DNA of 32,000 nucleotides, taken from Candidatus Methylomirabilis limnetica. GTDB taxonomy: Bacteria > Methylomirabilota > Methylomirabilia > Methylomirabilales > Methylomirabilaceae. A program made the position numbers and the translations under genes. The stretch is from the NCBI RefSeq assembly GCF_003044035.1, contig NZ_NVQC01000017.1, positions 90,001-122,000 of the forward strand, given 5' to 3'. Below the pieces are notes generated by a model, which saw only the letters and a list, made by a program, of their open reading frames with translations, ran no database searches and was not told the origin of the DNA. Of the stretch, positions 4,118 to 22,955 are shown piece after piece; position 1 is the stretch's first letter; each line of letters starts with the position of its first letter.

Positions 4118-5257
4118 TCAACATGCCTGGACCAGTACCTCCTGGGCCGCTCGTATCCCCTCGCCCAACTTGACTGGATAGCCGAGGTCAGCGAGGGTTC
4201 GTTCTAGCGCCGCCAGGCAGACGACAACGTCGGATTCATCGGCGTATCCCAGGTGGGCCAGGCGGAAGATCTTCCCCTTAAGCTGAGCCTGGCCGCCCGA
4301 GATGGTGATGCCGTGGGCTGCTCGAAGCCTCTTTACGATGGCACCGGCCTCGATGCCAGGCGGGGCGATAATAGTGGTCAGCGCAGGGGTAGGCCGCTCG
4401 GTGAATAGTTGGAGCCCGAGCGCCATGACTCCGGCGCGGGTCGCCCGCGCAAGCCGGTCATGTCGCGCGAAGAGCGCGGTGAGACCCTCTGCCCTGATCA
4501 CAGCGAGAGACTCATGAAGCGCCACAACCAACGAGACCGCCGGCGTAAAGGTGTTCTGGTTCTTCTCCAGGCTCTTCCGCTCAGCGATAAAATTGAAATA
4601 GAACTTCGGGAGTCGAGATCGCTGCACCATGGCCCAGGCCTTGTCAGAGACCCCACACAAGGCGAGACCCGGCGGAATCATCAGCGCCTTCTGAGTACCG
4701 CCCACGACGACGTCCACCCCCCAGGCGTCCATCGGCAGGTCCACCACCCCCACGCTCGTAATGGCGTCAACGATCAGGATGGCGGGCGTCTTTCCGACGA
4801 TCCGAGCAATCGCCTCAATATCGTGCAGGACACCCGTGGAGCTCTCACTATGAGTCGTGAAAACCGCCTTGATCGAGGGATCGGCCGTAAGGGCTGCCGC
4901 CACAAGGTCAGGCTCCACGGCGCGCCCCCACTCCACATCAATGTACGACGGCTGAAGGCCATAGGCCTCGCAGATCTCCCCCCAGCGCTCGCCGAACTTG
5001 CCGCCGCGGATCACCAGGGCCCGGTCACCTGGCGAGAGCGTGTTGACCACCGCGCCTTCCATCCCACCCGTGCCGGACGATGTGAATAGCAGCACCTCGT
5101 TCTTGGTTTGAAAGAGGAACTTAAGCCCCTCCCGGACGGAGGCGAGAAGGACTTCGTACTCCGGACCGCGATGGTACAGGATCGGCCTGGCCATCGCCAG
5201 CAAGGCTTCCGGAAGGACCTGAGTCGGACCCGGCGCTAACAGATGTCGCTTTTTCAT
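4118..5257 (-). CDS. Class-V (AGXT/serine-pyruvate type) aminotransferase, probably the phosphoserine aminotransferase partner of serA
   Basis: 379 aa. Motifs PGPT, SSGTGGMEG and the PLP-lysine region GGTQKALM. It lies directly upstream of serA on the same strand. Confidence 0.8.
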   Translation of the reverse strand: MKKRHLLAPGPTQVLPEALLAMARPILYHRGPEYEVLLASVREGLKFLFQTKNEVLLFTSSGTGGMEGAVVNTLSPGDRALVIRGGKFGERWGEICEAYGLQPSYIDVEWGRAVEPDLVAAALTADPSIKAVFTTHSESSTGVLHDIEAIARIVGKTPAILIVDAITSVGVVDLPMDAWGVDVVVGGTQKALMIPPGLALCGVSDKAWAMVQRSRLPKFYFNFIAERKSLEKNQNTFTPAVSLVVALHESLAVIRAEGLTALFARHDRLARATRAGVMALGLQLFTERPTPALTTIIAPPGIEAGAIVKRLRAAHGITISGGQAQLKGKIFRLAHLGYADESDVVVCLAALERTLADLGYPVKLGEGIRAAQEVLVQAC

Positions 5258-5529: not shown

Positions 5530-5883
5530 TTACTCCTCGGCTTCCGCTCCCCCCTCGGCTGCTGCCCCTTCCTCCGTCGCCTCCTCCATCATCTGGTCGA
5601 AGTCCTCGCCAACGTCTTCGCCCATCTCTTTCCCCATCCGCTTGGCCCAGCGAGCGACACTCTTCGGATCATTCTCATCAAGATCACCGAAATTACTGGG
5701 GTCAGCCATTCGCTCGAAGCGGCTCTCTTCAGACTTAACCACCGCAAACCGGGAGAGCAGACGCGTCATCTCCCGACTCTCACAGCGGGGGCAGACAGGT
5801 ATGAGGGGGTTATGGATATTCCGGATCAGCAGGCTCACTCGCTTCCTGCAACTGTGACACGCGTATTCATAGATCGGCATCAT
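5530..5883 (-). CDS. FmdB-family zinc-ribbon protein with acidic tail
   Basis: M(M)PIYEYACHSCRKR ... CPRCES gives two CxxC pairs in the canonical FmdB arrangement. There are tandem ATGs, so the start may be 5880. Confidence 0.8.
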   Translation of the reverse strand: MMPIYEYACHSCRKRVSLLIRNIHNPLIPVCPRCESREMTRLLSRFAVVKSEESRFERMADPSNFGDLDENDPKSVARWAKRMGKEMGEDVGEDFDQMMEEATEEGAAAEGGAEAEE

Positions 5884-6042
5884 GCACCTCGTTGCTGCTA
5901 TCGCTCATCACCGTAAAGAGCCGCCAAGTCTCGGCATGGGAGGATACAACCTCCTGCTCGTGTAAGCAGTTATCAGATCACCCCGCCGCTGTCAAGAGCA
6001 GCCGCCTTCCCGGCAGTGTCCTAATTCTAGCCCCCTTCGTCC

Positions 6043-6139
6043 GTCATTGCGAGCCGAAGGCAAAGCAATCTCATCGTTTATGATGAGCTGTAGAACAGAA
6101 CCCCTGGATTGCCGCGCTCCAGTTGGTCGCTCGCAATGC
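6043..6139. repeat. Palindromic intergenic repeat, family A, copy 2
   Basis: gtcattgcgagc ... caaagcaatctc ... attgccgcgc ... gctcgcaatg has the same termini and internal boxes as copy 1, with a longer centre. Confidence 0.8.
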
Positions 6140-6415
6140 TCCATGAGCATGGAAGTCCGTACCTCGCTCACCTTTGTCCTCTCCTCCCGGTGAGGAGAGA
6201 GGAATCTTTTTGCTGCCCCTCGCCCCTTTGGGGAGAGGGTGCGGGTGAGGGGACTTTCCGGGTAGTGACCGCGCTGTTAGACATGATCCCTCGGGCATGG
6301 CTGCAAGCAAATCAGGACAGCACCGCCACCGGCGAGTAAAAGTCTTGACAAGTTCGCAGAAAGGCAGGAAAGTTTCATTGATATGTTGAAATTGTAGGCT
6401 GTAGAAGAAAGGCAA

Positions 6416-6619
6416 ATGAGACAGAGCAGTAAATTCCCCCCTGGGTGGGATGAGGAGCGTGTGAAACGGGTCCTTGCCCACTATGAATCCCAAACGGAAG
6501 AAGAGGCTGTGGCAGAGGACGAGGCCGCGTTTGAGGCAGCAGATCAGACCGTCATGGAAATCCCCACCGATCTCGTTCCGAAGGTTCGAGAGCTGATCGC
6601 CAAGCATCAAGCGGCGTGA
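6416..6619 (+). CDS. Small acidic conserved hypothetical protein (67 aa)
   Basis: ATG preceded by a purine-rich stretch (gaagaaagg). The sequence PPGWDEERVKRVLAHYESQTEEEAVAEDEAAFE resembles a small orphan protein type I recognise from accessory regions. Function unknown. Confidence 0.45.
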   Translation: MRQSSKFPPGWDEERVKRVLAHYESQTEEEAVAEDEAAFEAADQTVMEIPTDLVPKVRELIAKHQAA

Positions 6620-6754
6620 AGCAGGGTTGACCGGACGCGGTGTTTGCCCTCCGGCAGGGGCCGCAGAGCCGGCCGCACCGCTTCCGCTCGTTGCTCACGC
6701 GCAATGTTAGGCGTCATTCGGTGGGGGAGTGGTCCCTTGAAGGAGTTACACGGC

Positions 6755-7192
6755 ATGACTGAAGTGCGAAAGCCCTCCGTTCTCTTCGTCTGCAAAGGCA
6801 ATACATGTCGCAGTGTCATGGCCGAGGCACTGACGAGGCGGCGCTTCGGTGACGCGGTCCAAGTAGCGTCTGCCGGTCTCCGTCCCCAACCTCCTGAAGA
6901 CGCGAAAAATGCAGTCGAGACCTTGCGTGTTGAGTTTAACTGGGATACCTCTTCCCATCTCCCGCGCCACTTCCGAGACATTGACGTGAACTCGTTCGAC
7001 TATGTTGTGGCCATGGACAAGTATATTGCGAAAGAACTCAAGGGTATTCCTAAAGAGAGGCTTCTCGTATGGAATATCGACGATCCGTGGGACAACGATA
7101 TGGCCGAGTACAAGCGATGTGGACTCATCATATTGCGGTACCTCTCACGCCTCCCAATCACACACTCTGGGCAACAAGAGGCCAACGCCTAA
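6755..7192 (+). CDS. Low-molecular-weight protein-tyrosine phosphatase
   Basis: AAGGAG RBS at 6740-6745, then ATG 6755. P-loop VLFVCKGNTCRS (CxGNxCRS) and a DP loop (IDDPW). The track ORF starts at 6644, but its first 37 codons lie in the attC-like spacer. Confidence 0.85.
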   Translation: MTEVRKPSVLFVCKGNTCRSVMAEALTRRRFGDAVQVASAGLRPQPPEDAKNAVETLRVEFNWDTSSHLPRHFRDIDVNSFDYVVAMDKYIAKELKGIPKERLLVWNIDDPWDNDMAEYKRCGLIILRYLSRLPITHSGQQEANA

Positions 7193-7292
7193 CTCCGGCT
7201 TGCAGACGGATGGAGAGGAGCGCGCGAGTGCGGGGCTCGGTGGTCCAGGTGCGGCTTAGTGCCACGTCCGCCCCCGCCGCTGAAGCCGCGGG
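7187..7292 (+). other. attC-like site lacking its distal core (truncated)
   Basis: GCCTAAC at 7187-7193 contains the TAA stop of the phosphatase. The arm tccggcttgcagacgga (7194-7210) pairs imperfectly with tccg..ctgaagccgcgg (7267-7292). No GTTRRRY follows; a DUF497 gene fragment starts there instead. Confidence 0.4.
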
Positions 7293-7299
7293 CACTGTG

Positions 7300-7404
7300 T
7301 GCCACTGCTTTAGAGTGGGCGATGCTGTCATCCGGATCATTTCCGCACGGAAAGTAAACCGAAATGAAGGATTATCACATCAACATCTTCTTCTACAGCG
7401 ATGA
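7300..7404 (+). pseudogene. 3' fragment of a BrnT/DUF497-family toxin gene
   Basis: The frame of track ORF 7069..7404 ends in FRVGDAVIRIISARKVNRNE. This matches the conserved DUF497 C-terminal motif (xIRIISARkaxxxE). No DUF497 N-terminal region is found upstream. Confidence 0.45.
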
Positions 7405-7585
7405 AGACGGCGGCTACATTGCTGACATCCCCGACTTGAAGTTCTGCTCCGCGTTCGGCGAAACCCCCAGCGAGGCCCTGACGGAAGTCCTGAAGGCGAA
7501 AGCGGCTTGGCTCAAGGCAGCACGAGCCGCAAAAAAGCCCATCCCCAAGCCGTCCGTTCGACCGGCGATTTATCAGGTGGCATAA
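7364..7585 (+). CDS. HicB-family (UPF0150) antitoxin-like protein
   Basis: 73 aa. MKDYHINIFFYSDEDGGYIADIPDLKFCSAFGETPSEALTEVLKAKAAWL is a typical HicB N-domain. No hicA is nearby. Confidence 0.75.
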   Translation: MKDYHINIFFYSDEDGGYIADIPDLKFCSAFGETPSEALTEVLKAKAAWLKAARAAKKPIPKPSVRPAIYQVA

Positions 7586-7669
7586 CAGGACAGCGCCGGG
7601 TACAACCGCCTTCGCCGGCTCACCGGCTCAGCCGGACATGCACGTCCTGGCATTGACCTAGAGTTGCGC
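7580..7669 (+). other. attC-like site
   Basis: GCATAAC (7580-7586) contains the TAA stop of the HicB-like gene, and the inverse core GTTGCGC lies at 7663-7669. Internal pairing includes caggac (7586-7591) with gtcctg (about 7644-7649). The site is asymmetric and imperfect. Confidence 0.35.
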
Positions 7670-7777
7670 CTAGGTCGAGGATCTTGGCGAGACGGCGGGA
7701 GGCTGACCACGCTACCTAATAGCGAGGCGGCTTCTGCACCACCGTGAAGCGGGTTCTTCTACAACCGGCTTGCATAA

Positions 7778-7794
7778 TATCTCGCCTTGAGATA
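7778..7794. promoter_or_regulatory. Candidate HigA operator (inverted repeat TATCTC-n5-GAGATA)
   Basis: Perfect 6-bp arms just upstream of higB ATG 7805, inside an AT-richer promoter-like stretch (ttgcataatatctc). Confidence 0.3.
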
Positions 7795-7804
7795 CGATGA
7801 CACT

Positions 7805-8092
7805 ATGCGCATCATTTCGAGAAAGGCTTTGCGCCAGTTTTGGGAGCAATACCCGGATAGTAAATTGGCGCTGACGCGCTGGTTCAAAATCGTGCGGCAC
7901 ACCACCTTTCGCGGTTTTGGTGAATTGCGGACGACTTTTCCCTCAGTTGACAAAGTCGGCAAATGGATTGTGTTCAACATCGGTGGCAACAAATATCGGC
8001 TGATCGCAGTCATTCACTTTAGTCGGGGTAAACTATACATTCGCCATGTTCTCACGCATCAAGAATATGACAAAGGGAGTTGGAAGCAATGA
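7805..8092 (+). CDS. higB: HigB-family mRNA interferase toxin
   Basis: MRIISRKALRQFWEQYPDSK ... FNIGGNKYRLIAVIHF ... YIRHVLTHQEYDKGSWK is the HigB toxin signature. The ATGA overlap with the next gene indicates coupling. The track start 7787 is a TTG inside the operator. Confidence 0.85.
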   Translation: MRIISRKALRQFWEQYPDSKLALTRWFKIVRHTTFRGFGELRTTFPSVDKVGKWIVFNIGGNKYRLIAVIHFSRGKLYIRHVLTHQEYDKGSWKQ

Positions 8093-8487
8093 GCACTCTC
8101 ACGAAAGACCTCCAAAGTCATTGGGCCAATATTCGCCCCATCCTAACGATTCGCAATGAGCGCGAATATGACTCGGCGATTAAGCGGCTAAAGGAGTTGT
8201 TGGATGAAATCGGTGATAACGAGCGCCATCCCCTGTATGGCCTGTTAGATACGCTAGGCACGTTGATTCACGTTTACGAGGAAAAACATCATCCCATGCC
8301 TGGATGCGCTGGAGCTGACATGCTTCAATTTTTTATGGAAGAGCATGGTTTGAATCAATCGGACTTGGCAGACATCGGCTCTCAGGGCGTCGTGTCCGAA
8401 ATCCTGAATGGCAAGCGGGAATTGAATGTTCGCCAGGTTCGTCTTTTGGCAAGGCGGTTTCAGGTGTCACCCGCCGTGTTCATCTGA
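8089..8487 (+). CDS. higA: HigA-family antitoxin (XRE helix-turn-helix)
   Basis: The C-terminal HTH (LNQSDLADIGSQGVVSEILNGKRELNVRQVRLLARRF) and its position immediately after higB. Confidence 0.85.
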   Translation: MSTLTKDLQSHWANIRPILTIRNEREYDSAIKRLKELLDEIGDNERHPLYGLLDTLGTLIHVYEEKHHPMPGCAGADMLQFFMEEHGLNQSDLADIGSQGVVSEILNGKRELNVRQVRLLARRFQVSPAVFI

Positions 8488-8506
8488 GCTACACGCCGCT
8501 AGCGCC

Positions 8507-8526
8507 GCCCAACACCGCGTCCAGCC
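8507..8526 (+). other. Left half of an attC-like site (truncated)
   Basis: GCCCAACaccgcgtccagcc, 19 nt after the higA stop, parallels GCCTAACtccggcttgcagac at 7187. It breaks off into AT-rich sequence followed by a transposase remnant. Confidence 0.35.
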
Positions 8527-8596
8527 TAAAACAAATAGAAAACAAATAGGGACAGACACTATTATTGTGACGAGTTGTGGTGTTTACGGTCATGAT

Positions 8597-8824
8597 CGTG
8601 CCTGCTACGGATTACCCAAACTTATTGTACCCGGCCACCCGTATCATGTGAGGCAACGAGTGAATGATCACCAGGCGGTCTTTCGGAACGACAGCGATTC
8701 GAAGGCACACGATGACAGGGCGGCCACTACGAAGAGACGGGTTCATCTGGGAGGTGCGCAGGAAACTGGACGAGTAGTACCCGTGCTGCAGAGGGGAAGG
8801 CCAAGAAAGGACCTCAATAAATAG
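8597..8824 (+). pseudogene. Remnant of a REP-associated tyrosine transposase (RAYT / IS200-like Y1 transposase)
   Basis: LPKLIVPGHPYHVRQRVNDHQAVFRNDSD matches the RAYT N-terminal motif (LPRLxxPGxPxHVxQRGNxRQxxFxxDxD), and the C-terminal tail is RGRPRK. Only about 75 codons remain where roughly 200 or more are typical, so the gene appears internally deleted. Confidence 0.5.
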
Positions 8825-9020
8825 TGCCTGTATGCGTGCCAGGAGAAGACGCTCCGGCCGGGGTGAGCATACCATCCTGACTGAATCCGCCGAACCGCCG
8901 TATACGTGATCCGTATGTGCGGGGGTGTGGAAGGAGAGGAGCAGTGAGGCTCCTCCCTATCCCGATTGGCTTTCCCAATCTCCGGTTTTGTCTTGCCGTG
9001 GGATGGAAAATCTGCAGAAT

Positions 9021-9037
9021 CTTACTGGTAAGATAAT
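9021..9037. promoter_or_regulatory. Candidate operator and -10 element of the AbrB-PIN module
   Basis: Inverted repeat CTTAC-tg-GTAAG overlaps GATAAT. GGGAGG RBS at about 9044-9049, ATG at 9056. Confidence 0.3.
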
Positions 9038-9055
9038 CCTATTGGGAGGTGAAAA

Positions 9056-9319
9056 ATGGCTGGTGTCGCAACAACGAAGATGTCATCCAGGGGTCAAGTC
9101 GTAATTCCCGAAGGCATCCGGAAAAGACTCGGATTTACAACCGGTTCGCAATTCGTCGTTATCGGGGAGGAGGACACCGTAATCTTAAAGGCGATATCTG
9201 CTCCTACGCTGGCAGATTTCGACGAGCTCGTGTCAGAAGCTCGAAGACAGGCCCGTCAAGCCGGAATGAAGAGATCCGATGTCGTTGCGGCCATCAGAGA
9301 AGCCCGAGGGGCAAAGTGA
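9056..9319 (+). CDS. AbrB/MazE/SpoVT-family antitoxin
   Basis: MSSRGQVVIPEGIRKRLGFTTGSQFVVIGEEDTVILK is a swapped-hairpin SpoVT/AbrB domain. Its stop overlaps the GTG start of the PIN gene (GTGA). Confidence 0.8.
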   Translation: MAGVATTKMSSRGQVVIPEGIRKRLGFTTGSQFVVIGEEDTVILKAISAPTLADFDELVSEARRQARQAGMKRSDVVAAIREARGAK

Positions 9320-9728
9320 GGATCGTCCTTGATACGAATGTCTCATCTCGGGCGTGTTCTTTTCAGGTCCACCCTTTCAAATCCTAAAGGCATGGCGAGA
9401 TCGTAGGATTCAGATCGCCCTCTCCGAGGAAATCCTTCAAGAATATCAACGAGTCGGGGAGACCTTGGCTGCGAGGCACCCAGGAGTACATCTGGGTTCT
9501 ATTCTAGATCTGCTCTCTGTAGAGGCCGACTTGTTTTCTTCCCCGGATTTACCAAATCCCGCTTGCGAAGACAGGACGGATGACAAGTTTTTTGCTTGTG
9601 CCTTGGCGGCTAGAGCAAGAATTGTGGTCAGTGGGGATAAGCACCTCTTGAAGGTGAACCACTATCGAGGTATTGAGGTGATAAGACCCCAGGAATTCGT
9701 GCATCGCTACCTAAAGGCGCAAAGCTAA
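9316..9728 (+). pseudogene. PIN-domain toxin (TIGR00305-like) disrupted by a 1-nt frameshift near 9343
   Basis: GTG 9316 gives VRIVLDTNV in frame 1. The conserved continuation ISGVFFSGPPFQILKAWRDRRI ... CEDRTDDKFFACALAARARIVVSGDKHLL is in the frame of track ORF 9354..9728, starting at 9345. One missing base between 9342 and 9345 would restore VLDTNV-x-ISG. Confidence 0.8.
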
Positions 9729-9857
9729 CTTCTGGCGATACCGCGACCCGGCAAAGCCACGTGCGTGACTGGCCGGCCCTCGCTGTGGCGGCCTCTAGCC
9801 GGTCACTCCGGCGGGCCCCTGGGTTATCCAGCATACTTATGGAACGATTTGTTAGGC
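9723..9857 (+). other. attC-like site
   Basis: AGCTAAC (9723-9729) contains the TAA stop of the PIN gene, and GTTAGGC lies at 9851-9857. Internal imperfect palindromes: ctggcgata with tatccag, and central gtgactggc with gccggtcac. There is about 17 nt of extra sequence next to the distal core. Confidence 0.4.
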
Positions 9858-10041
9858 ACATCCTCTTTGTGTGGCAAGCTTAAATGATCGCTGTCCCTAT
9901 TTACGCCTCTTGACAGGACCTCCATTTACTAGGAAGATGCACGCACAAGATGGTCGGCGCTCCGCTCCGCAGGTCGGACCAGACGGAACCAGATGGCCTG
10001 AGTCCAATGTGGACGGACGTCGTGCTCTGTCGGGAGACGGT

Positions 10042-11505
10042 ATGAATCTGGCTGGTTCGATATTGCATACTGCGTTTTCCCTCCTTTTAATCGTCAAACT
10101 GCGTCAGTACGCTGTCCTGCGCGCCGTCGCCGCGCTGGGGACAGCGGCCCTTGTGGTATCCACGCCCGCCATAGCCAAAACACCCAGCCAGGTCTTCGAG
10201 GAGGTCTCCGCCAGCGTGGTTGTGGTAGAGGTCTACGACGCGAAAGGGACACAGATCGGGCAAGGTAGTGGAGTGATCATTGCGCCAGGCGAGGTAGCGA
10301 CCAACTGCCATGTGACCAAGGATGCTCAACGCCTTCAGGTGCGCCACGGCCAGGTGCGGCATCCGGCTCAGGTGCGCTTGAGCGACGCAGACCGCGATCT
10401 CTGCCAGATCACCGCGGCAGGTCTCACGGCGCGGCCTGTGGCGATCGGCGCCACCAAAGCCCTCAAGGTGGGGAGCCGCGTCTATGCCGTGGGAGCGCCA
10501 AAGGGTCTGGAGCTCACCTTAAGCGAGGGGATCGTCTCGGGCCTCCGGGAGGTTTCTGGCGGCCGGTTCATCCAGACGACCGCTCCCATCTCTCCCGGGT
10601 CGAGCGGGGGTGGGCTGTTCGATGAAAACGCGGCACTCGTGGGGCTGACCACCTTCTACGTGAGCGAAGGCCAAAACCTCAATTTCGCCCTCCCGGTGGA
10701 GTGGCTGAGGGAACTTCACGCACGCCACACGGCCCAGACGCCGGCCAAGGATTCCACCGTGGGCTGGCTGGCCAAGGCGCTGGCATTGGATAGCCGGAAG
10801 GATTGGGAGGGGCTACGCGCGCACGCCCGGCAGTGGGTCAACGCCCAGCCTAAGAACGCGGTGGCGTGGTACACCCTGGGCTGGGCCTATGGCAAGCTCG
10901 GCCAGTCGGCCAAGGCCGTGGACGCCCACCAGCAGGCCATTCGCCTCAACCCCGAGTATGCCGACGCGTGGAACAACCTGGGCAGGGCCTATGGCAAGCT
11001 CGGCCAGCCGGCGAAGGCCGTGGACGCCTACCAGCAGGCCGTGCGCCTCAACCCCGAGTATGCCGACGCGTGGTCCAACCTGGGCTATGCCTATGGCAAG
11101 CTCGGCCAGTCGGCCAAGGCCGTGGACGCCTACCAGCAGGCCATTCGCCTCACCCCAGAGGATGCCGACGCGTGGCACAACATGGGCGTGGCCTATGGCG
11201 ATCTCGGCCAGTGGGCGAAGGCCGTGGACGCCCACCAGCAGGCCCTGCGGCTGAACCCCGAGCATGCCAACGCGTGGTCCAACCTGGGCTATGCCTATGG
11301 CAAGCTCGGCCAGTCGGCCAAGGCCGTGGACGCCTTACAGCAGGCCCTGCGGCTCAACCCAGAGAATGCCAACGCGTGGTACAACCTGGGCGTGGCCTAT
11401 GACGAGATGGGTCGCAGGGACCAGGTCATGGAGGTGTACCGGAAGCTTAAAGGGCTGGATGCGGCAAAGGCCGAAGAGTTTTTTCAGGAGGTGGTGCTTC
11501 CATAG
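10042..11505 (+). CDS. Secreted trypsin-like (S1) serine protease fused to a TPR array
   Basis: GGAG then ATG 10042, followed by a hydrophobic signal-like segment (AVAALGTAALVVSTPAIA). Catalytic triad context: TNCHV, DRDLC, PGSSGGG. Six to seven 34-aa TPR units follow (AWxNLGxAYGKLGQxAKAVDAxQQAxRLNPExAD). The track ORF begins at GTG 9871, so the start is uncertain. Confidence 0.85.
   Translation: MNLAGSILHTAFSLLLIVKLRQYAVLRAVAALGTAALVVSTPAIAKTPSQVFEEVSASVVVVEVYDAKGTQIGQGSGVIIAPGEVATNCHVTKDAQRLQVRHGQVRHPAQVRLSDADRDLCQITAAGLTARPVAIGATKALKVGSRVYAVGAPKGLELTLSEGIVSGLREVSGGRFIQTTAPISPGSSGGGLFDENAALVGLTTFYVSEGQNLNFALPVEWLRELHARHTAQTPAKDSTVGWLAKALALDSRKDWEGLRAHARQWVNAQPKNAVAWYTLGWAYGKLGQSAKAVDAHQQAIRLNPEYADAWNNLGRAYGKLGQPAKAVDAYQQAVRLNPEYADAWSNLGYAYGKLGQSAKAVDAYQQAIRLTPEDADAWHNMGVAYGDLGQWAKAVDAHQQALRLNPEHANAWSNLGYAYGKLGQSAKAVDALQQALRLNPENANAWYNLGVAYDEMGRRDQVMEVYRKLKGLDAAKAEEFFQEVVLP
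10864..11373 (+). repeat. Five near-identical tandem 102-bp units (TPR-coding)
   Basis: Direct reading: units start at residues A332, A366, A400, A434 and A468 of the track ORF. The DNA is largely conserved unit to unit and produces long spurious ORFs in other frames. Confidence 0.9.
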
Positions 11506-11507
11506 AT

Positions 11508-11703
11508 ACGCCCATACCCCATGACTCGTCGCGGGACAATCGAACTGAGCCCCGGCCTACCGTGCGCATGGCGATGTGCCCCCAGGCCACTGCGGCTGCG
11601 GGTTCAGCGGCGCCACCCCCCCCTTTGAGTCGTTTTAAGGCATATCATCTCAGCGCGGCGTGCCGGCGGGATACTATTTTTGAGGCAGAATACTCTGTTA
11701 GAA
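11508..11703 (+). other. Possible long, degenerate attC-like spacer
   Basis: ACGCCCAtAC lies 3 nt after the protease stop, and GTTAGAA (11697-11703) lies 11 nt before the lipoprotein ATG. There is a central hairpin (ctgagccccg with cgggttcag). The cores are imperfect. Confidence 0.25.
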
Positions 11704-11713
11704 GGAGAGTGAG

Positions 11714-12037
11714 ATGACACGTCCGTTCTTTACTGCTATCGCTTCTGCAGTCCTACTCCAAGGATGTGCCACATCTAGCGGAGTATTCCTAGCCGATGGA
11801 ACCAAGGGTTACAACATCAACTGTAGTGGGGCCTTTATGAATTACGCCCACTGCCTTGAGAAAGCCGGCGAAATTTGTGGCGCACGAGGCTACTTGGTCG
11901 TGAATCAACAGGGAGATGCCGTGCCATTGTCCGTGGCAGGTGGGGGATTTGGTGCAAACCCCCAAGCGGCCTCTGGGGGTTTCTATGCTCAGTCTGGCAC
12001 CATCGTCACTCGTAATCTGTTCACCAAGTGCAAGTAG
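11714..12037 (+). CDS. Small lipoprotein of unknown function
   Basis: GAAGGAG RBS. Signal peptide with lipobox (AVLLQGC-A). Gly-rich C-terminal half. Confidence 0.7.
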   Translation: MTRPFFTAIASAVLLQGCATSSGVFLADGTKGYNINCSGAFMNYAHCLEKAGEICGARGYLVVNQQGDAVPLSVAGGGFGANPQAASGGFYAQSGTIVTRNLFTKCK

Positions 12038-12061
12038 CTCCTTCTAGCATTGCGGTCGAGA

Positions 12062-12122
12062 ATGACGCTCCGCGAGCATCGCGTTGCCCGCTCGCACGCG
12101 CATCTCACCGCAGACGTTGGGC
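12062..12122 (+). other. attC-like site with a degenerate proximal core
   Basis: ATGACGC (12062-12068) pairs with GCGTCAT, which directly follows GTTGGGC (12116-12122). Inner stem gcgagc with gctcgc. The distal core plus GTCAT also occurs at 6706-6717 (GTTAGGCGTCAT). Confidence 0.35.
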
Positions 12123-12150
12123 GTCATAGACCTATGTATGGTGGCGTGAT

Positions 12151-13014
12151 ATGAAGAGAAAGATCCTGGAGGACGTGCTCTCTCAGTCTCCTAGTGATTC
12201 GTTGTACCACTACACCCAGCAGAGAGGATTCATGGGGATTGTTCAGAGTGCTGAGATATGGGCAACCCATACCCAGTACCTTAACGACCGAAGGGAATAC
12301 TTGCACGCCGTTGACATGGTTCGTGACCAGATCCAGATAAAGGCTATGCGGGCATTTGGTGATCCTAACCTCCGCTCGATTCTTCAAGACATGGAGAATG
12401 GCCTGGATGGCATCGAAGGCATGAACGTTTGTGTTTGCTCGTTTTCTGAGGAACGGGACTCCCTATCTCAGTGGCGCGCGTACGGTGGAGGTTCATCTGG
12501 TTTTTCGATCGGTTTCTCGGGTGATTTCCTTACCGAAGTCGCTGGCCAAGAAGGATGGTATCTCGCCCCCTGCATATATGACCCAAAGGCCCAGAGCGAT
12601 CTCGTCAGCGCTCTAGTGCAGGAGGTTATTGAGGAAAATGTTGCTCGGGAGAGCGCAGAAACAAAGGAGGAAGTCATGCTACCTCTCGGTGGTAACCTCA
12701 ACGCATACCTGCATCGGTACGCGCCAATCTTGAAGGACTACTCGTTTCGCGAAGAGAGGGAGTGGCGACTGATATCTCGCCCGCTGAGCTGCACATTTGA
12801 CGCATTCGACTTTCGCGAGGGCAGTTCAATGTTGACCCCTTACTACAGGCTTCGACTCGGCGCCGATCCTACGGCACTGAATATTCAGGAGGTGGTCGTG
12901 GGGCCTACGCCGCATCCAGATCAATCATCCAGGTCCACGCGAAGCTTTCTGGTACGCCACTCGCTGAAAACTGTTCCAGTAGTTGCGTCACAAGTTCCGT
13001 ATCGCAGTTGGTAG
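12151..13014 (+). CDS. DUF2971-family protein
   Basis: 287 aa. LYHYT, IWATHTQYLNDRREY (the fNDxxE motif), CVCSFSEERDSLSQWRAYG and REEREWRL fit the DUF2971 pattern. The gene looks less GC-rich than its surroundings. Confidence 0.7.
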   Translation: MKRKILEDVLSQSPSDSLYHYTQQRGFMGIVQSAEIWATHTQYLNDRREYLHAVDMVRDQIQIKAMRAFGDPNLRSILQDMENGLDGIEGMNVCVCSFSEERDSLSQWRAYGGGSSGFSIGFSGDFLTEVAGQEGWYLAPCIYDPKAQSDLVSALVQEVIEENVARESAETKEEVMLPLGGNLNAYLHRYAPILKDYSFREEREWRLISRPLSCTFDAFDFREGSSMLTPYYRLRLGADPTALNIQEVVVGPTPHPDQSSRSTRSFLVRHSLKTVPVVASQVPYRSW

Positions 13015-13056
13015 CAAACTCGCCCTGTATCCAGGAATGCACTCTCCCGCTAAGAC

Positions 13057-13123
13057 GCCCAACCCATCATTCCACCGGACATGCGCGAAAAGCCGCGCAG
13101 GCCGGTGAATTCAAACGTTGAGG
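13057..13123 (+). other. attC-like recombination site (best-formed in the window, 67 bp)
   Basis: GCCCAAC (13057-13063) ... GTTGAGG (13117-13123). The arm attccaccggacatgcgcg pairs with cgcgcaggccggtgaat around an aaaag loop, with two unpaired bases on the left arm. Confidence 0.6.
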
Positions 13124-13339
13124 TTGTAGAAAAACCTCCTCGTGAAGAGCGCTCGCAATAGGACGCGATATGAGCGACGATCGTCCGAAATCTGACGTCT
13201 TTTGCCCAACGTCGGCAGGAGCGTGGCCTCTCGCGGCTCAGAGAGAGCCGCAGGCTCGGTACCATTGGGCAGCAAGGAAAATTATGGTCTGTTGTTGAGG
13301 CCTCTAAAGACGCGTTCCCCGAGGTTTTTCTACAGCCTC
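13120..13339. repeat. 19-bp inverted repeat pair bracketing about 220 bp of ORF-less DNA (MITE-like or inverted cassette ends)
   Basis: GAGGTTGTAGAAAAACCTC (13120-13138) against GAGGTTTTTCTACAGCCTC (13321-13339) matches 18/19 as a reverse complement. Both copies are flanked on the outside by GTT. Confidence 0.55.
13204..13270 (+). other. Second attC-like hairpin
   Basis: TGCCCAAC pairs with ATTGGGCA. Inner stem gcct(ctc)gcggctc with gagccgc-aggc around an agaga loop. The distal core starts with A instead of G, and accattgggcag also occurs in an unrelated repeat at 22076. Confidence 0.4.
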
Positions 13340-13797
13340 GTTAGCAGGGCAAAGTTCCCTACCGATGGGCCGCCGCACGGAGCGAGGCCGGGCGAATGTG
13401 AAGCCTCGACGTCCAAACATTTGACGTAAGCACGAGGCTGTTCACTTAGGCTCTCCCACCGTTCACCCTTATCGAAGGGTAATTGTGGTTCGACAGGCTC
13501 ACCACGAACGGCTAGAGTAAATAGTATTGGACGTAAGTATGTAAGGAATGAGCGCCTTGCAAAGGCGGGAGAATCGCTGCAACCTTTGAACGTTTCTGTA
13601 GGCGCGATAGACTGACCAACCGCGTCATCTGGACTGTGGCTTCCCCATCAGCTTTCCGCACGGTGCTCATCTCCGCCGCCGTAACGGGTACGATCGACGT
13701 GCGGGAGGTGGGATGACGGCGAAGAGAGGGCTTGATCTCCAGTCATTAATGTTTTACTCTAGTCCCGTGAATAAGCGGGGGGTTCAGTATCGCTGCC

Positions 13798-14979
13798 GTG
13801 AATAAGCCGACGAACGTCTCTCGCCGGGCTCGCGCCGGTACCTACGTGACCGTCTCGACGGTCGGCGGCGAGCGCGTACGTGCCTTCGTGCCGGCGCCGC
13901 TTCCGCCGACGCCGCCGATCGAGATCGACGGGGCGCTCCGCCGTGCGCTCGACGAGGCTCTGGTCGCCTTGGGACGGCTTGATGGCGTCTCCGGTTTCCT
14001 GCCCGACCGCAATCTGCTTCTCTACTCCTTCGTCCGCAAGGAAGCCGTGCTGTCCTCGCAGATCGAGGGCACGCAGTCCTCGCTCTCCGACCTTCTACTC
14101 GCGGAGATCGACGAGGCTCCGGGCGTCCCCATAGACGATGTCAGCGAAGTCTCCAATTGCGTCGCCGCCATCGAGCACGGGGTACGCCGCTTGCGGGAGG
14201 ACTTCCCGCTCTCGAACCGGCTGCTCCGTGAGATGCACGAGATTATGTTGCGCCGCGGCAGGGGGGCGGAGAAGCAACCGGGCCACTTTCGTCACTCGCA
14301 GAACTGGATCGGTGGCACGAGGCCAGGCAATGCGGTCTTCGTCCCGCCTCCTCCCGATCGCGTCGAAGAGCTCATGGGCGCCCTCGAACGTTTTCTCCAC
14401 GACGAGCGGACCTCACCGCTCCTGAAAGCCGCGCTGGCCCACGTTCAGTTCGAGACCATTCACCCGTTTCTCGACGGCAACGGCAGGGTCGGACGGATAC
14501 TGATCACGCTCATCCTCGTCCACGGGGGCCTCCTGAGCGAGCCCATGCTCTATCTGAGCCTTTACTTCCGGCAGCACCGGCGGGAGTACTACGAGCGCCT
14601 AAGCGCGGTGAGGCTCGAAGACGACTGGGCTGGGTGGCTCCACTTCTTCGCCGAGGCCGTGAACGTGACGGCACGGTCGGCGCTCGACACGGCACAGCGA
14701 GTGACCGGCATGTTCGCGGCGGATCTTTCTCGCATTCACTCCTTGGGTCGGCGCGCGGCGGCTGCTGCGCAGGTGCACACGAGTCTGTCCAAACGGCCCC
14801 TCGCCTCGATTGCGAAGCTCAGGGAGCTGACCGGGATGTCCACCCCAGCGATCATCCGCGGGCTCGAAGCCCTGGCGGGGATCGGCATAGTGCGAGAGAT
14901 AACCGGCCGCAGACGAAGTCGCATCTTCGCCTACGATCAGTACCTGCGACTCCTCAACGAGGGGACTGAAACGCCATGA
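13798..14979 (+). CDS. Fic-family protein (AMPylase-type, class II auto-inhibited) with C-terminal winged-helix-like domain
   Basis: Canonical HPFLDGNGRVGR Fic motif, with an N-terminal inhibitory SSQIEG (SxxxEG) motif. GTG start. Confidence 0.9.
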   Translation: MNKPTNVSRRARAGTYVTVSTVGGERVRAFVPAPLPPTPPIEIDGALRRALDEALVALGRLDGVSGFLPDRNLLLYSFVRKEAVLSSQIEGTQSSLSDLLLAEIDEAPGVPIDDVSEVSNCVAAIEHGVRRLREDFPLSNRLLREMHEIMLRRGRGAEKQPGHFRHSQNWIGGTRPGNAVFVPPPPDRVEELMGALERFLHDERTSPLLKAALAHVQFETIHPFLDGNGRVGRILITLILVHGGLLSEPMLYLSLYFRQHRREYYERLSAVRLEDDWAGWLHFFAEAVNVTARSALDTAQRVTGMFAADLSRIHSLGRRAAAAAQVHTSLSKRPLASIAKLRELTGMSTPAIIRGLEALAGIGIVREITGRRRSRIFAYDQYLRLLNEGTETP

Positions 14980-15047
14980 CCCCGGAGATCTCCGAGCGTT
15001 CGCTTGAGGAGACAATCGAGTCGCGGATGTTTTACTGGCCGGGATAG
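14976..15047 (+). pseudogene. 23-codon stump of a gene once translationally coupled to fic
   Basis: ATGA overlap with the fic stop. MTPEISERSLEETIESRM resembles the SExxFEExIE N-termini of type I/III restriction helicase subunits, and the frame stops after 23 codons. This is speculative. Confidence 0.25.
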
Positions 15048-15100
15048 CTTTACAGTTAGGCCCACCGCACCTTACACTGGAGTTAAGGAGGAATACCTTG

Positions 15101-15232
15101 ATGGAAGCGCGCCGTTGGCTGATCACGTTGCTGGCAGTCGTGGCGATCTTTGTGCTGGGTGCGCGCGCTGTCTTGTCGTTAAGACGCTCTGAGGAGTCCC
15201 TGATTTTGCACAACCTGCGGCGCTCAAACTGA
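15101..15232 (+). CDS. 43-aa single-pass membrane peptide
   Basis: Strong AAGGAGG RBS about 8 nt upstream of the ATG. MEARRWLITLLAVVAIFVLGARAVLSLRRSEE has one hydrophobic helix. It is below the track size cut-off and lies 40 nt after the GTTAGGC core at 15055-15061. Confidence 0.35.
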   Translation: MEARRWLITLLAVVAIFVLGARAVLSLRRSEESLILHNLRRSN

Positions 15233-15309
15233 CATGCCTCAATGAAAGACCAGAGGCTCATTTATAATCGAGATTATACTGCTGACAGCGGCAAACAGAT
15301 AGGGGGACA

Positions 15310-15825
15310 GTGAGTAACGTTGAGTACTGCCATCCCGCCGCATCGATCGACGGTGTGCTTATTATCGCGGGACCTGAGGTCCGTAAGGCCGGATTCTGGA
15401 TTCGACTGGCGGCCTGGGTCGTCGATCTCGCCTGCCTCTTTCTCGTCACCATCGCTCTCGCCCTTGCAGCGCTGATAACCATTTATCTCGGGGGCCAGTT
15501 CGGCGGTGAGATTAATGACCAGGTGATGGCGTTGGCTGGATATTCAAGCACTGCCATTGTCATGTTAAGTGGTGTAGTATATTTCACCATCTTTGTCGGC
15601 TCGTGCGGGCAGACCCCAGGGAAGATGCTCTTCCGCCTGAAGGTTGTTCGAGCTGACGGCCAGGAGATGACCTATGACGGGGCATTGCTTCGCTCGCTGT
15701 TTTGGATGCTCTCGCTGCTGCTTTTCGGCATCGGCTTTCTGATGATCGCGTTTACCCGGCAAAAACGCGGTCTGCACGATATACTGGCAGGCACGTCCGT
15801 GATCCGCCTCCAACGCTCGCCTTGA
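15310..15825 (+). CDS. RDD-family membrane protein
   Basis: AGFWIRLAAWVVDL ... GQTPGKMLFRLKVV ... RGLHDILAGTSV is the RDD domain pattern, with 3 TM segments. GTG start. Confidence 0.8.
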   Translation: MSNVEYCHPAASIDGVLIIAGPEVRKAGFWIRLAAWVVDLACLFLVTIALALAALITIYLGGQFGGEINDQVMALAGYSSTAIVMLSGVVYFTIFVGSCGQTPGKMLFRLKVVRADGQEMTYDGALLRSLFWMLSLLLFGIGFLMIAFTRQKRGLHDILAGTSVIRLQRSP

Positions 15826-21954: not shown

Positions 21955-21957
21955 TAG
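21927..21957 (+). repeat. Direct repeat copy 1 (3' end of comM)
   Basis: ccggaccctggaccgccgcacagggtagtag. It recurs with 3 mismatches at 22925-22955. Confidence 0.85.
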
Positions 21958-22036
21958 GCATATGGCTGAACGGCATCTTGGGTCTTTCGGAAGTCGTGTA
22001 AGTGACGGCGTGGTTTATGACTATGCCATCTAGCTC

Positions 22037-22088
22037 GTAGGGGCGCTGCTTGCTGCGCCCTTCTCGGCGTCAGGCACCATTGGGCAGA
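22037..22088. repeat. Family B repeat, second copy
   Basis: 24/24 identity to 2401-2424, followed in both copies by a cattgg-n-cag box. Confidence 0.8.
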
Positions 22089-22126
22089 GCGGTGAAGCCT
22101 GATTCCAGCGAATCCTTTAACAAACA

Positions 22127-22141
22127 ATAGCGTTCTGCTAT
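22127..22141. promoter_or_regulatory. Candidate operator of the second higBA (ATAGC-n5-GCTAT)
   Basis: Inverted repeat 10 nt upstream of higB-2 ATG 22151, with the same arm and spacer geometry as at 7778-7794. Confidence 0.3.
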
Positions 22142-22150
22142 CATTACTCA

Positions 22151-22438: not shown

Positions 22439-22439
22439 C

Positions 22440-22907: not shown

Positions 22908-22924
22908 GCAATCACTTCAGCCAG

Positions 22925-22955
22925 CCGGACCCTGGACCGCCACACCGGGTGGTAG
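22925..22955 (+). repeat. Direct repeat copy 2 (pseudo 3' end of comM)
   Basis: ccggaccctggaccgccacaccgggtggtag would encode RTLDRHTGW-stop, against RTLDRRTG-stop in the real gene. Confidence 0.85.

What the first reader, a model, noticed from the sequence alone, without database searches (positions are those of the whole stretch)
6620..15061. Integrase-less integron-type cassette array wedged between housekeeping operons
About 9 kb of short, co-oriented, functionally unrelated units sits between two core blocks (purA-hisZ-serA and ffh-rpsP-rimM-trmD-rplS). At or within 50 nt after most stops there is an RYYYAAC-type motif: aACGCCTAAC 7184-7193, GCATAAC 7580-7586, cCGCCCAAC 8505-8513, AGCTAAC 9723-9729, ACGCCCAtAC 11508-11517, gACGCCCAAC 13054-13063 and GCCCAAC 13204-13210. 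In three of them the TAA stop lies inside the motif. Ten to fifty nt before the next start there is the inverse GTTRRRY-type motif: GTTAGGC 6706, GTTGCGC 7663, GTTAGGC 9851, GTTAGAA 11697, GTTGGGC 12116, GTTGAGG 13117 and GTTAGGC 15055. The DNA between paired motifs is imperfectly palindromic with bulged bases. This is the R''-L''...L'-R' architecture of attC sites. A load rich in toxin-antitoxin modules is typical of sedentary chromosomal integrons. No intI-like tyrosine recombinase or recognisable attI is present and both in-window flanks are core genes, so this looks like a CALIN or a decayed array.
Basis: partly seen in the sequence, partly recalled or inferred. Interest (0 to 1): 0.8.

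Follow-up and report, generated by a model that had tools for sequence, protein, structure and literature searches.

The report
Decayed integron cassette cluster without integrase
A strain-variable stretch of the Candidatus Methylomirabilis limnetica chromosome holds a few genuine integron gene cassettes (one textbook example) among toxin-antitoxin and phage-defence genes, but it has no integrase and most recombination sites are eroded, so it is an ordinary relic cassette cluster and not a working array.

Summary
The window comes from Candidatus Methylomirabilis limnetica.

- **Motifs.** All 14 listed motifs are at the stated coordinates. The degenerate 7-mer RYYYAAC is at chance level (42 found, 39.5 expected).
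- **attC sites.** Covariance models built here from known class 1 attC sites find only two in 32 kb. One is 13057-13123 (32-44 bits, E 9e-6 to 4e-10, canonical architecture). The other is 12042-12122 (17 bits, E 0.015-0.03, AAC mutated to AGC).
- **A textbook cassette.** These two sites bracket a DUF2971 gene. Homologous copies in unrelated contigs share its borders exactly at G|TT.
- **A third junction.** At 13340/13341, a relative carries an Mrr cassette with a canonical attC joined at |TTAGCAGGG.
- **Other boundaries.** They carry only relics or nothing. The pairs 7580-7669 and 9723-9857 do not fold like attC.
- **Variation.** Close relatives (Ffh 97-98% identical) carry different unit sets between the same flanks, so about 6014-15282 is hypervariable.
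- **Integrase.** No intI or intI pseudogene is present.

Verdict: a small decayed CALIN inside a toxin-antitoxin and defence hotspot. It is a new member of a known kind, of modest interest.

The parts
6014..15282 (+). Strain-variable accessory locus between the Zn-ribbon gene (5530-5883, minus strand) and RDD-ffh. All units are co-oriented on the + strand.
   Evidence: blastn of relatives against the window. L180 matches 5537-6013 and then resumes at 13341. All relatives resume at 15283. Relatives carry different unit sets.
6416..6619 (+). orf67, no family match. It is preceded by a diverged copy of the promoter-like repeat (about 6344-6385).
6706..6717 (+). GTTAGGCGTCAT: an R'-type core and the 5' end of the LMW-PTP unit. 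It matches the DUF2971 cassette's 5' end (GTTGGGCGTCAT) at 11 of 12 bases.
   Evidence: No complete attC upstream of it.
6755..7192 (+). Low-molecular-weight phosphotyrosine phosphatase / ArsC-like gene; probable former cassette.
   Evidence: Pfam PF01451, E 2e-21. A homolog 62% identical is a cassette in a complete integron, L183-L185.
7187..7319 (+). Eroded attC of the LMW-PTP unit. It has R'' GCCTAAC (the stop codon lies inside it). The L box is GGCTT(G)CAG(A)CGG paired with CCGCTGAAGCC. The R' is degenerate (TTTAGAG) and lies after an extra hairpin.
   Evidence: ACGCCTAAC (7185-7193) is a 9-nt perfect inverted repeat of 6706-6714. Fold, z only -0.6. The model hit covers the L box only: 7200-7284, 6.9 bits, E about 10, not significant.
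7364..7585 (+). HicB-like antitoxin. It is preceded by the last ~20 codons of a truncated toxin gene (...IRIISARK).
   Evidence: Pfam PF15919, E 6e-4; translation. The BrnT-like reading of the remnant is from memory.
7805..8487 (+). HigB toxin (7805-8092) and HigA antitoxin (8089-8487).
   Evidence: Pfam PF09907, E 1e-29, and HTH_3. The HigA segment 8089-8503 is 96% identical in L181, which has no HigB.
8507..8526 (+). Relic 5' half of an attC (R'' GCCCAAC, then ACCGC, then GTCCAGCC), cut off by unrelated AT-rich DNA.
   Evidence: L181 lacks the 13 nt that hold R'' but keeps the rest of the hairpin (CAGCCG...CGGCTG) ending in ATTGGCC. The two strains hold complementary fragments of one site. 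This is inference.
9056..9728 (+). AbrB/MazE-type antitoxin (9056-9319) and a PIN toxin gene (9319-9728) with a frameshift near 9343, so probably a pseudogene.
   Evidence: Pfam and NCBIfam; reading frames; no gene was called there in L001.
10042..11505 (+). Trypsin-like protease fused to six TPR repeats.
   Evidence: Pfam and NCBIfam; repeats of 102 nt.
11508..11517 (+). ACGCCCAtAC followed by CCCAT. It resembles the R'' plus spacer of the 13057 site with one extra base; possible relic.
   Evidence: Direct reading of the sequence. No model hit.
11714..12037 (+). Small lipoprotein gene; a cassette whose attC follows it.
12042..12122 (+). attC site with a mutated R'' (TTCTAGC, AAC changed to AGC). 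The hairpin has three extra bases on the 5' arm. R' is GTTGGGC.
   Evidence: R2 17.1 bits, E 0.034. R3 17.0 bits, E 0.015. Bottom-strand fold.
12117..13117 (+). DUF2971 gene cassette (gene 12151-13014), running from TTGGGCGTCAT to the G of its attC.
   Evidence: Homology to L087, L090 and L093 is confined to the cassette and starts and ends at G|TT. Pfam PF11185.
13057..13123 (+). Canonical attC: GCCCAAC | CCATC | ATT(C)CACCGG ... CCGGTGAAT | TCAAAC | GTTGAGG.
   Evidence: R1 32.2 bits, E 8.6e-6. R2 41.5 bits. R3 44.3 bits, E 3.9e-10. It is the only hit of the strict architecture scan. The bottom strand folds with bulged G and T, z -2.8.
13118..13340 (+). Short unit without an ORF. It is bounded by 19-nt inverted arms (13120-13138 and 13321-13339). 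It holds an attC-like relic at 13204-13263 (GCCCAAC ... ATTGGGC).
   Evidence: (inverted repeat I8). No model hit.
13340..13346 (+). GTTAGCA: the cassette junction. The SoFic unit starts at 13341 (TTAGCAGGG).
   Evidence: In L180 a canonical Mrr attC (R2 46.8 bits, part of the training set) is joined to the same TTAGCAGGG. Homology to the window starts at 13341.
13555..13595 (+). 5'-truncated copy of an ~85-nt promoter-like direct repeat (TTGACA, 17 nt, GAGAAT in full copies).
13798..14979 (+). Fic-domain protein of the SoFic anti-phage defence family.
   Evidence: PADLOC SoFic, E 2.7e-117; Pfam Fic_N and Fic. No attC follows it.
15053..15282 (+). Strain-specific filler holding GTTAGGC (15055-15061) and a 43-aa ORF (15101-15232). 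Relatives have an unrelated 180 nt here.

Best explanation
Window positions about 6014-15282 form a strain-variable accessory locus of Candidatus Methylomirabilis limnetica. At least part of it was built from integron gene cassettes and has since decayed: a cluster of attC sites lacking an integron integrase (CALIN).

**Shown**
- Two attC sites survive, at 12042-12122 and 13057-13123. They bracket a DUF2971 cassette.
- The next junctions (13117/13118 and 13340/13341) are also G|TT cassette junctions.
- The LMW-PTP unit carries matching cassette ends and belongs to a protein subfamily that is cassette-borne in a true integron.

**Inferred**
- The cassettes were inserted by an integron integrase. 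That enzyme recombines the folded bottom strand of attC hairpins (R box, unpaired spacer, L box with extrahelical bases) and cuts between G and TT.
- The integrase is now absent from the locus, so the sites are no longer under selection. They erode by point changes (AAC to AGC; GTT to ATT, TTT or CTT) and by deletions. These deletions also truncated or frameshifted toxin genes.
- The present differences between relatives come partly from old cassette exchange and partly from ordinary deletion and recombination.
- The genes (toxin-antitoxin pairs, SoFic, DUF2971, a protease, a phosphatase) are probably expressed from their own promoters. They probably serve in defence or stabilisation.
For: **attC models.** R1 was trained on 7 class 1 attC sites plus one environmental site. 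It hits 13057-13123 at 32.2 bits, E 8.6e-6, and nothing else. R2 and R3 give 41.5 and 44.3 bits, and add 12042-12122 at 17 bits, E 0.034 and 0.015. The window was never in the training sets.

**Specificity control.** R2 gives 0 hits at E<=10 in 1.4 Mb from 80 unrelated genomes.

**Positive controls.** All class 1 sites score 43-73 bits.

**Structure.** 13057-13123 has a 7-nt R'', a 5-nt spacer and a 3+6 bp L box with a bulged base, then a 6-nt spacer and GTT. Its bottom strand folds with extrahelical G and T.

**Mobility.** DUF2971 homologs at 67-79% identity sit in unrelated contexts. Homology starts at G|TTGGGCGTCAT and ends in the attC. L087 has canonical attC sites on both sides of the gene.

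**LMW-PTP.** A homolog (62% identical) lies in an integron with an IntI that is 52.6% identical to IntI1, and with 5 attC hits.

**Strain variation.** Relatives with Ffh 97-98% identical carry different units between the same flanks. The L180 Mrr attC joins the window's Fic unit exactly at |TTAGCAGGG.

**No integrase.** No tyrosine recombinase gene was called, and there are no tblastn hits to IntI1 or an environmental IntI at E<0.4.
Against: - Only 2 of about 10 unit boundaries have a model-supported attC. The second is weak and lacks the AAC triplet.
- Relatives L175, L177, L179 and L181 have none.
- Many breakpoints between strains are not at attC sites.
- The Fic unit has no attC at its 3' end. 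It overlaps a truncated downstream reading frame, which suggests it came from a larger non-cassette island.
- The models were home-made from few sequences. The official IntegronFinder model was not run.
- The relic assignments (7187-7319, 8507-8526, 11508, 13204-13263) rest on reading by eye and are not statistically significant.
- Inverted repeats of 9 nt or more starting with GTT within 3 kb are expected about 4 times per window by chance.
Confidence: 0.72

Rival explanations
1. The locus is a general integration and defence/toxin-antitoxin hotspot assembled by other means, such as homologous exchange through the core flanks, other recombinases or illegitimate recombination. Only two to four units (lipoprotein, DUF2971, the short unit, perhaps Fic or Mrr) are stray integron cassettes that landed there, for example at a secondary site. 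The remaining units were never cassettes.
For: - Most boundaries lack an attC.
- Breakpoints occur at 8089, 13557, about 15052 and 15283, away from attC sites.
- An ~85-nt promoter-like direct repeat brackets the variable block in every strain.
- A second HigBA module elsewhere in the window (22151-22907) was inserted by a different mechanism, with a ~28-nt direct repeat at the end of comM.
- DUF2971 cassettes occur as singletons in other genomes.
Against: - The LMW-PTP unit, 5 kb from the attC pair, carries matching GTTAGGCGT / ACGCCTAAC ends of the same family as the DUF2971 cassette. Its closest relatives are cassette-borne.
- Half-site relics follow HigA and the protease gene.
- All units are co-oriented, as in a cassette array.
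Confidence: 0.25
2. The array is still active. An integron integrase encoded elsewhere in the genome acts in trans on the surviving attC sites, and possibly on an attI-like site near the left end.
For: - About half of the CALINs reported by Cury et al. 2016 are in genomes that encode IntI elsewhere (PMC4889954).
- 13057-13123 is fully canonical.
- The Fic and HigA units are 96-97% identical between lineages whose flanking core DNA is about 93% identical, which suggests recent exchange.
Against: - No intI could be looked for outside the 32-kb window.
- The other attC sites are mutated in the conserved triplets.
- The toxin genes are decaying.
- Three long contigs carry this same arrangement.
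Confidence: 0.1
3. The motifs belong to a generic REP-like palindromic repeat family, or are chance matches, and have nothing to do with integrons.
For: - RYYYAAC is at chance frequency.
- Other generic short repeats do exist in the intergenic DNA (6040-6260 and 13455-13505).
Against: - A model trained on clinical attC sites hits 13057-13123 at E 8.6e-6.
- There are 0 hits in the 1.4-Mb control.
- Cassette-limited homology appears in three unrelated contexts.
- The two CGCCYAAC matches outside the block lie inside genes.
Confidence: 0.02

Closest known systems
CALIN (cluster of attC sites lacking an integron integrase; Cury et al. 2016, PMC4889954)
   Same: - Two or more attC sites lie within 4 kb.
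- There is no intI or intI pseudogene within 10 kb.
- The attC sites have low mutual similarity.
- The cassettes are of unknown or accessory function.
- The authors interpret such clusters as a step between capture in an integron and fixation in the genome.
   Different: - Only two sites pass a model here, one of them weakly.
- The cluster sits inside a larger variable block whose other boundaries are eroded or are not attC sites.
- The host phylum (Methylomirabilota / NC10) was not found linked to cassette arrays in the literature search.
Sedentary chromosomal integrons, for example the Vibrio superintegron and the Xanthomonas integrons (the Xanthomonas details are from my own knowledge)
   Same: - The location is chromosomal, next to housekeeping genes.
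- The cassettes are co-oriented.
- Many cassettes are toxin-antitoxin or anti-phage defence genes.
- Cassette content differs between close relatives.
- Arrays that are decaying are known.
   Different: - There is no integrase and no recognisable attI.
- The attC sites are few and dissimilar, not a homogeneous family.
- The array is far smaller.
Defence or toxin-antitoxin islands at chromosomal integration hotspots
   Same: - The content includes SoFic, Mrr (in L180), MNT/HEPN (in relatives), HigBA, PIN and HicB modules.
- Content varies between conserved core flanks.
   Different: Part of the content is demonstrably delivered as integron cassettes with G|TT borders. That is a specific mechanism not implied by the term 'island'.

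Membership tests
CALIN / integron cassette array | At least two attC sites detected by a covariance model, no more than 4 kb apart | tested here: met
   13057-13123 scores 32-44 bits and 12042-12122 scores 17 bits (E 0.015-0.034). They are 935 nt apart. The models were home-made, not IntegronFinder's attc_4. The second site is marginal.
CALIN / integron cassette array | attC architecture: R''(..AAC), spacer, L'' ... L', spacer, R'(GTT..), with extrahelical bases on the folded bottom strand | tested here: met
   Fully met at 13057-13123. At 12042-12122 the hairpin, bulges and R' are present, but R'' reads AGC instead of AAC.
CALIN / integron cassette array | No integron integrase gene or pseudogene nearby | tested here: met
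   Gene calls and Pfam show no tyrosine recombinase in the window. tblastn with IntI1 and an environmental IntI gives a best E of 0.44.
CALIN / integron cassette array | Units behave as discrete cassettes: the same unit appears in other contexts, bounded at G|TT | tested here: met
   Shown for the DUF2971 cassette in L087, L093 and L090 and for the Fic-unit junction against L180. Not shown for the other units.
CALIN / integron cassette array | An attC after (nearly) every unit of the 9-kb block | tested here: not met
   No model hits at the other boundaries. 7580-7669 and 9723-9857 do not fold as attC.
Complete integron | An intI gene with the integron-specific insertion, adjacent to the array | tested here: not met
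   The rest of the genome could not be searched.
Complete integron | An attI site and a Pc promoter at the head of the array | tested here: inconclusive
   A conserved promoter-like element (TTGACA, 17 nt, GAGAAT) lies at the left end in relatives. A GTTRRRY-like core follows it 25-65 nt downstream. The high identity between strains ends at the promoter element, not at G|TT. attI sites have no general consensus to test against.
Sedentary chromosomal integron | A large array (more than 19 attC sites), or presence in all strains, with a homogeneous attC family | tested here: not met
   Two attC sites, dissimilar to each other.
REP / generic intergenic palindrome family | The same repeat scattered through the genome irrespective of gene ends | tested here: not met
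   Within the window, CGCCYAAC is concentrated at gene borders of the block. The two matches outside lie inside genes. A genome-wide test was not possible.

The most novel reading that the evidence does not exclude
An ~85-nt promoter-bearing direct repeat brackets the variable block in every Methylomirabilis strain examined: one copy at the left end and one near the right end. This repeat could be the real landing or recombination site of the hotspot. It might be an attI-like or otherwise new site, used in trans by an unlinked recombinase. The locus would then be a still-active cassette platform without its own integrase and with a built-in promoter, and not a dead relic.
Probability: 0.08. 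Interest if true: 0.6.

Novelty: new member of a known kind. Interest (0 to 1): 0.3.

Why it matters
- **Host range.** Integron cassettes have reached the chromosome of a nitrite-dependent methane oxidiser of the NC10 / Methylomirabilota phylum. The literature search found no report of cassette arrays in this group.
- **A view of decay.** The locus shows how such cassettes become fixed. Sites erode by point mutation and deletion, toxins decay, and different strains keep complementary fragments.
- **Content.** The load (SoFic, DUF2971, toxin-antitoxin modules) fits recent reports that cassette arrays stockpile anti-phage defence genes (bioRxiv 10.1101/2024.07.02.601686, listed).
- **A caution for motif-based calls.** The R''/R' 7-mers alone are at chance frequency. 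The two halves of a cassette's attC flank the gene and do not sit together in the same spacer.
- **Limit.** None of this changes current understanding of integrons.

Tried and rejected
- **Rfam at gathering threshold:** 0 hits in the window.
- **tRNA/tmRNA scan:** none found, so no tRNA-linked island.
- **Genome-contig scan with Ffh:** the nearest genome had Ffh only 63% identical. It was replaced by protein search plus contig look-ups.
- **Metagenome scan with a DUF2971 alignment:** most homologs below about 65% identity are ordinary chromosomal genes without attC. Only the closest relatives are in cassette form.
- **Strict hand-written attC scanner:** it needed at least 5 of 7 R-box pairs and so missed true sites. 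In integrated arrays R'' and R' come from different cassettes.
- **Half-site profile HMMs:** no power. Even the true site scores only E 0.1-0.4.
- **Counting GTT-led flanking inverted repeats:** not enriched as a class.
- **The ~85-nt promoter-like repeat as an attC:** no model hit. The RNAalifold structure is weak (-12.7 kcal/mol, with the covariation term unfavourable) and the element is not palindromic. It is absent from the viral contigs.
- **An attI-like junction at the left end:** identity between L175 and L180 drops at the end of the promoter element, not at G|TT.
- **A third, broader model (R3):** it found the same two sites and nothing new.

Full report
**Source and gene map**

The DUF2971 and LMW-PTP proteins are 100% identical to Candidatus Methylomirabilis limnetica proteins CLG94_05750 and CLG94_05710. 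The same DNA lies on a 152-kb metagenome contig.

Pfam, NCBIfam and PADLOC give the following map.
- Minus strand, left flank: a hisS-like gene (1065-2369), serA (2478-4058), a class-V aminotransferase (4118-5257) and a Zn-ribbon gene (5530-5883).
- Plus strand, in order:
  - orf67 (6416-6619)
  - LMW-PTP (6755-7192)
  - HicB-like antitoxin (7364-7585)
  - HigB/HigA (7805-8487)
  - AbrB/MazE antitoxin (9056-9319)
  - frameshifted PIN toxin (9319-9728)
  - trypsin-TPR protease (10042-11505)
  - lipoprotein (11714-12037)
  - DUF2971 (12151-13014)
  - Fic (13798-14979)
  - RDD (15310-15825)
  - then ffh, rpsP, rimM, trmD and rplS
- The Fic protein matches the SoFic defence family (E 2.7e-117).

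The description of short, co-oriented, unrelated units between core genes is therefore correct.

**Checking the motif observation**

- Every listed motif is at its stated coordinate, and three TAA stops lie inside motifs.
RYYYAAC on both strands occurs 42 times in the window against 39.5 +/- 6.1 in shuffles.
- Five listed motifs break the stated consensus.
- A narrower word, CGCCYAAC, is enriched: 7 against 2.25, with 0 of 100 shuffles reaching 7. Five of the 7 lie at gene borders in the block, forward after stops and reverse before starts.

**Are there attC sites?**

Rfam has no hit, so I built attC models here.
- I confirmed my recalled aadA1 attC sequence against 1962 plasmid records at 99% identity or more. 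I then took seven class 1 attC sites from two plasmid integrons.
- Model R1 used those seven plus one environmental site. With filters off it finds one site in the 32-kb window, 13057-13123, at 32.2 bits and E 8.6e-6. Everything else is at E>3.
- R1 also found sites it was not trained on, next to DUF2971 homologs in other contigs.
- Two broader models never included the window. R2 used 13 sites and R3 used 17. They score 13057-13123 at 41.5 and 44.3 bits. They add 12042-12122 at 17 bits, E 0.034 and 0.015.
- As a specificity control, R2 gives no hit at E<=10 in 1.4 Mb from 80 unrelated genomes.

*Site 13057-13123* reads GCCCAAC | CCATC | ATT(C)CACCGG ... CCGGTGAAT | TCAAAC | GTTGAGG. This is the same 7-5-(3+1+6) ... 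(6+3)-6-7 layout as the aadA1 site. Its bottom strand folds into one hairpin with a bulged G and a bulged T (z -2.8).

*Site 12042-12122* has the hairpin, three extra bases on the 5' arm, and R' GTTGGGC. Its R'' reads TTCTAGC, so AAC has become AGC.

**The DUF2971 unit is a textbook cassette**

- Homologs at 67-79% identity lie in unrelated contexts. One sits beside a thiamine operon in L087. Another sits beside ribonucleotide reductase genes in L092. Others are on short contigs.
- Nucleotide homology to the window begins at G|TTGGGCGTCAT (12116/12117). It runs to the attC and ends at its G|TT. The DNA beyond differs in each case.
- In L087 both flanking attC sites are canonical (30 bits with R1, which was not trained on them). 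In L090, L092 and L093 they are variously decayed (GTT to GTG or ATT, or R' lost).
The start of a cassette (TTGGGCGTCAT) and its R'' (ATGACGCCCAAC) are the two halves of one extended R box in the circular cassette. They therefore flank the gene and do not sit in the same spacer.

**Other units**

- *LMW-PTP.* The unit has the same kind of ends (GTTAGGCGT at 6706 and ACGCCTAAC at 7185-7193). After R'' comes an L box with two bulged bases (GGCTT(G)CAG(A)CGG paired with CCGCTGAAGCC). Its R' is degenerate, and the next gene (a toxin) is cut down to about 20 codons. The models give only a non-significant L-box hit. Its closest relatives (62% identical) are cassettes in a true integron, L183-L185. 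That integron has an integrase 52.6% identical to IntI1 with the integron-specific insertion, and five attC hits.
- *HigA.* After HigA the window keeps R'', the spacer and the start of L'' (8507-8526). Relative L181 has lost those 13 nt but keeps the rest of the hairpin, ending in ATTGGCC. I read these as complementary fragments of one site. This is inference.
- *Possible relics.* Weaker candidates are at 11508-11517 and 13204-13263.
- *Fic.* No attC follows the Fic gene.

**Comparison with close relatives**

Contigs whose Ffh is 97-98% identical carry different sets of units between the same flanks.
- L175/176/178/179: orf173, an unrelated LMW-PTP (31% identical), nucleotidyltransferase/HEPN, Fic.
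- L180: left flank, an Mrr-type nuclease, Fic.
- L181: orf189, nucleotidyltransferase/HEPN, a HigA 95% identical to the window's but with no HigB, and orf62. It has no Fic.

Positions about 6014-15282 are therefore hypervariable.

One junction is exactly as the integron model predicts. In L180 the Mrr gene is followed by a canonical attC with three bulged bases. The sequence after it, TTAGCAGGG..., is the window's 13341 onward. The window has G|TTAGCA there, after different upstream DNA.

Other breakpoints (8089, 13557, about 15052, 15283) are not at attC sites. L175, L177, L179 and L181 have no detectable attC at all. The mobile units (Fic 96.9% identical, HigA 96.4%) are more similar between lineages than the flanking core DNA (about 93%). 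This suggests more recent exchange.

**Integrase**

- No tyrosine recombinase was called in the window or in the relatives' loci.
- tblastn with IntI1 and the environmental IntI finds nothing better than E 0.4.
- The rest of the genome could not be searched.

**Interpretation**

By the published definition, a CALIN is at least two attC sites with no neighbouring intI (PMC4889954). This locus qualifies. It is small and decayed, and it sits inside a toxin-antitoxin and defence hotspot.

The mechanism is inferred from established integron biology. An integrase inserted the cassettes by recombining folded bottom-strand attC hairpins at G|TT. Once the integrase was gone, the sites and some toxin genes eroded, and later variation came largely from ordinary recombination. 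I put 0.72 on this reading.

The main rival, at 0.25, is that only the lipoprotein, DUF2971 and neighbouring units are stray cassettes in an island built by other means. An integrase acting in trans (0.1) cannot be excluded. A REP-like or chance explanation is contradicted (0.02).

**Unexplained**

An ~85-nt direct repeat precedes unrelated units in all strains. Its sequence is GGTCAACAGCGGGTCATGGCGAACCTTGACAA.TCCTTGCAAAGGCGGGAGAATCGCCGCAACC.TTGAA.GTTT, and it contains a TTGACA, 17 nt, GAGAAT promoter-like motif.
- One copy lies at the left end and one near the right end. In the window the copy at 13555-13595 is 5'-truncated, and a diverged copy lies near 6344-6385.
- It is not palindromic and gives no attC model hit. 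Its predicted structure is weak.
- High identity between L175 and L180 ends at its 3' end, not at the next GTT.
- It may simply be a duplicated promoter. Its bracketing position leaves room for a role in recombination.

**Verdict**

This is a new member of a known kind, with interest about 0.3.

Noticed in passing
window 13555-13595 and about 6344-6385; L175 308-357 and 2318-2381; L180 633-700 and 1842-1882; L181 210-255 and 2748-2814: An ~85-nt direct repeat with a promoter-like motif (TTGACA, 17 nt, GAGAAT) precedes unrelated units and brackets the variable block in every strain. It is absent from the viral contigs.
   Followed up: partly
window 21930-22955: A second HigB/HigA module (22151-22907) is inserted at the 3' end of the comM-like Mg-chelatase gene. 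It is flanked by a ~28-nt direct repeat (21930-21958 and 22928-22955). It is absent from relatives L175-L179, where the Mg-chelatase gene is directly followed by DUF2141. This is a separate insertion by a mechanism other than attC recombination.
   Followed up: partly
window 9319-9728 and 7296-7363: Two toxin genes are decaying. The PIN toxin gene has a frameshift near 9343: VRIVLDTNV continues as LISGVFFSGPP in another frame. Only the last ~20 codons (..IRIISARK..) of a toxin gene remain upstream of the HicB-like antitoxin. The antitoxin genes are intact.
   Followed up: partly
window 13341-15050 and 8089-8503, compared with the flanks 5537-6013 and 15283 onward: The Fic unit (96.9%) and the HigA segment (96.4%) are more similar between lineages than the flanking core DNA (92-93%). 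This suggests more recent horizontal exchange of the units.
   Followed up: no
window 6040-6260 and 13455-13505: Generic short intergenic repeats occur here (for example cattgcgagccgaaggcaaagcaatc, ccctttggggagagggtgcgggtgagggg and ggttcgacaggctcaccacgaac). Contigs from other samples (L002, L004) break at about 13485, probably because of such a repeat.
   Followed up: no
window 10751-11547: The trypsin-TPR gene contains six tandem copies of a 102-nt unit (TPR repeats) at 61-100% identity.
   Followed up: no
L183 328-792; L185 68-1149: This is a complete environmental integron whose integrase (52.6% identical to IntI1) lies on the same strand as its cassettes. The gene is frameshifted in L185. 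The array carries two phosphatases, an AbiJ-domain protein and five attC sites.
   Followed up: partly
window 9839-9857, minus strand: GCCTAACAAATCGTTCCAT on the minus strand resembles an R'' plus spacer plus the start of L'' (the best half-site hit, E 0.19). It has no partner arm. It may be a relic of an inverted attC, or chance.
   Followed up: partly
window 8600-8700: The translation PKLIVPGHPYHVRQRVNDHQAVF resembles, from memory, the N-terminus of REP-associated tyrosine transposases. Pfam gave no hit for the enclosing ORF, so this is unverified.
   Followed up: no
window 14976-15050: The Fic stop overlaps an ATG that opens a short reading frame (MTPEISERSLEETIESRMFYWPG*). The frame ends at the strain-variable junction. 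It looks like the stump of a downstream gene, which would suggest the Fic unit was cut out of a larger island.
   Followed up: no
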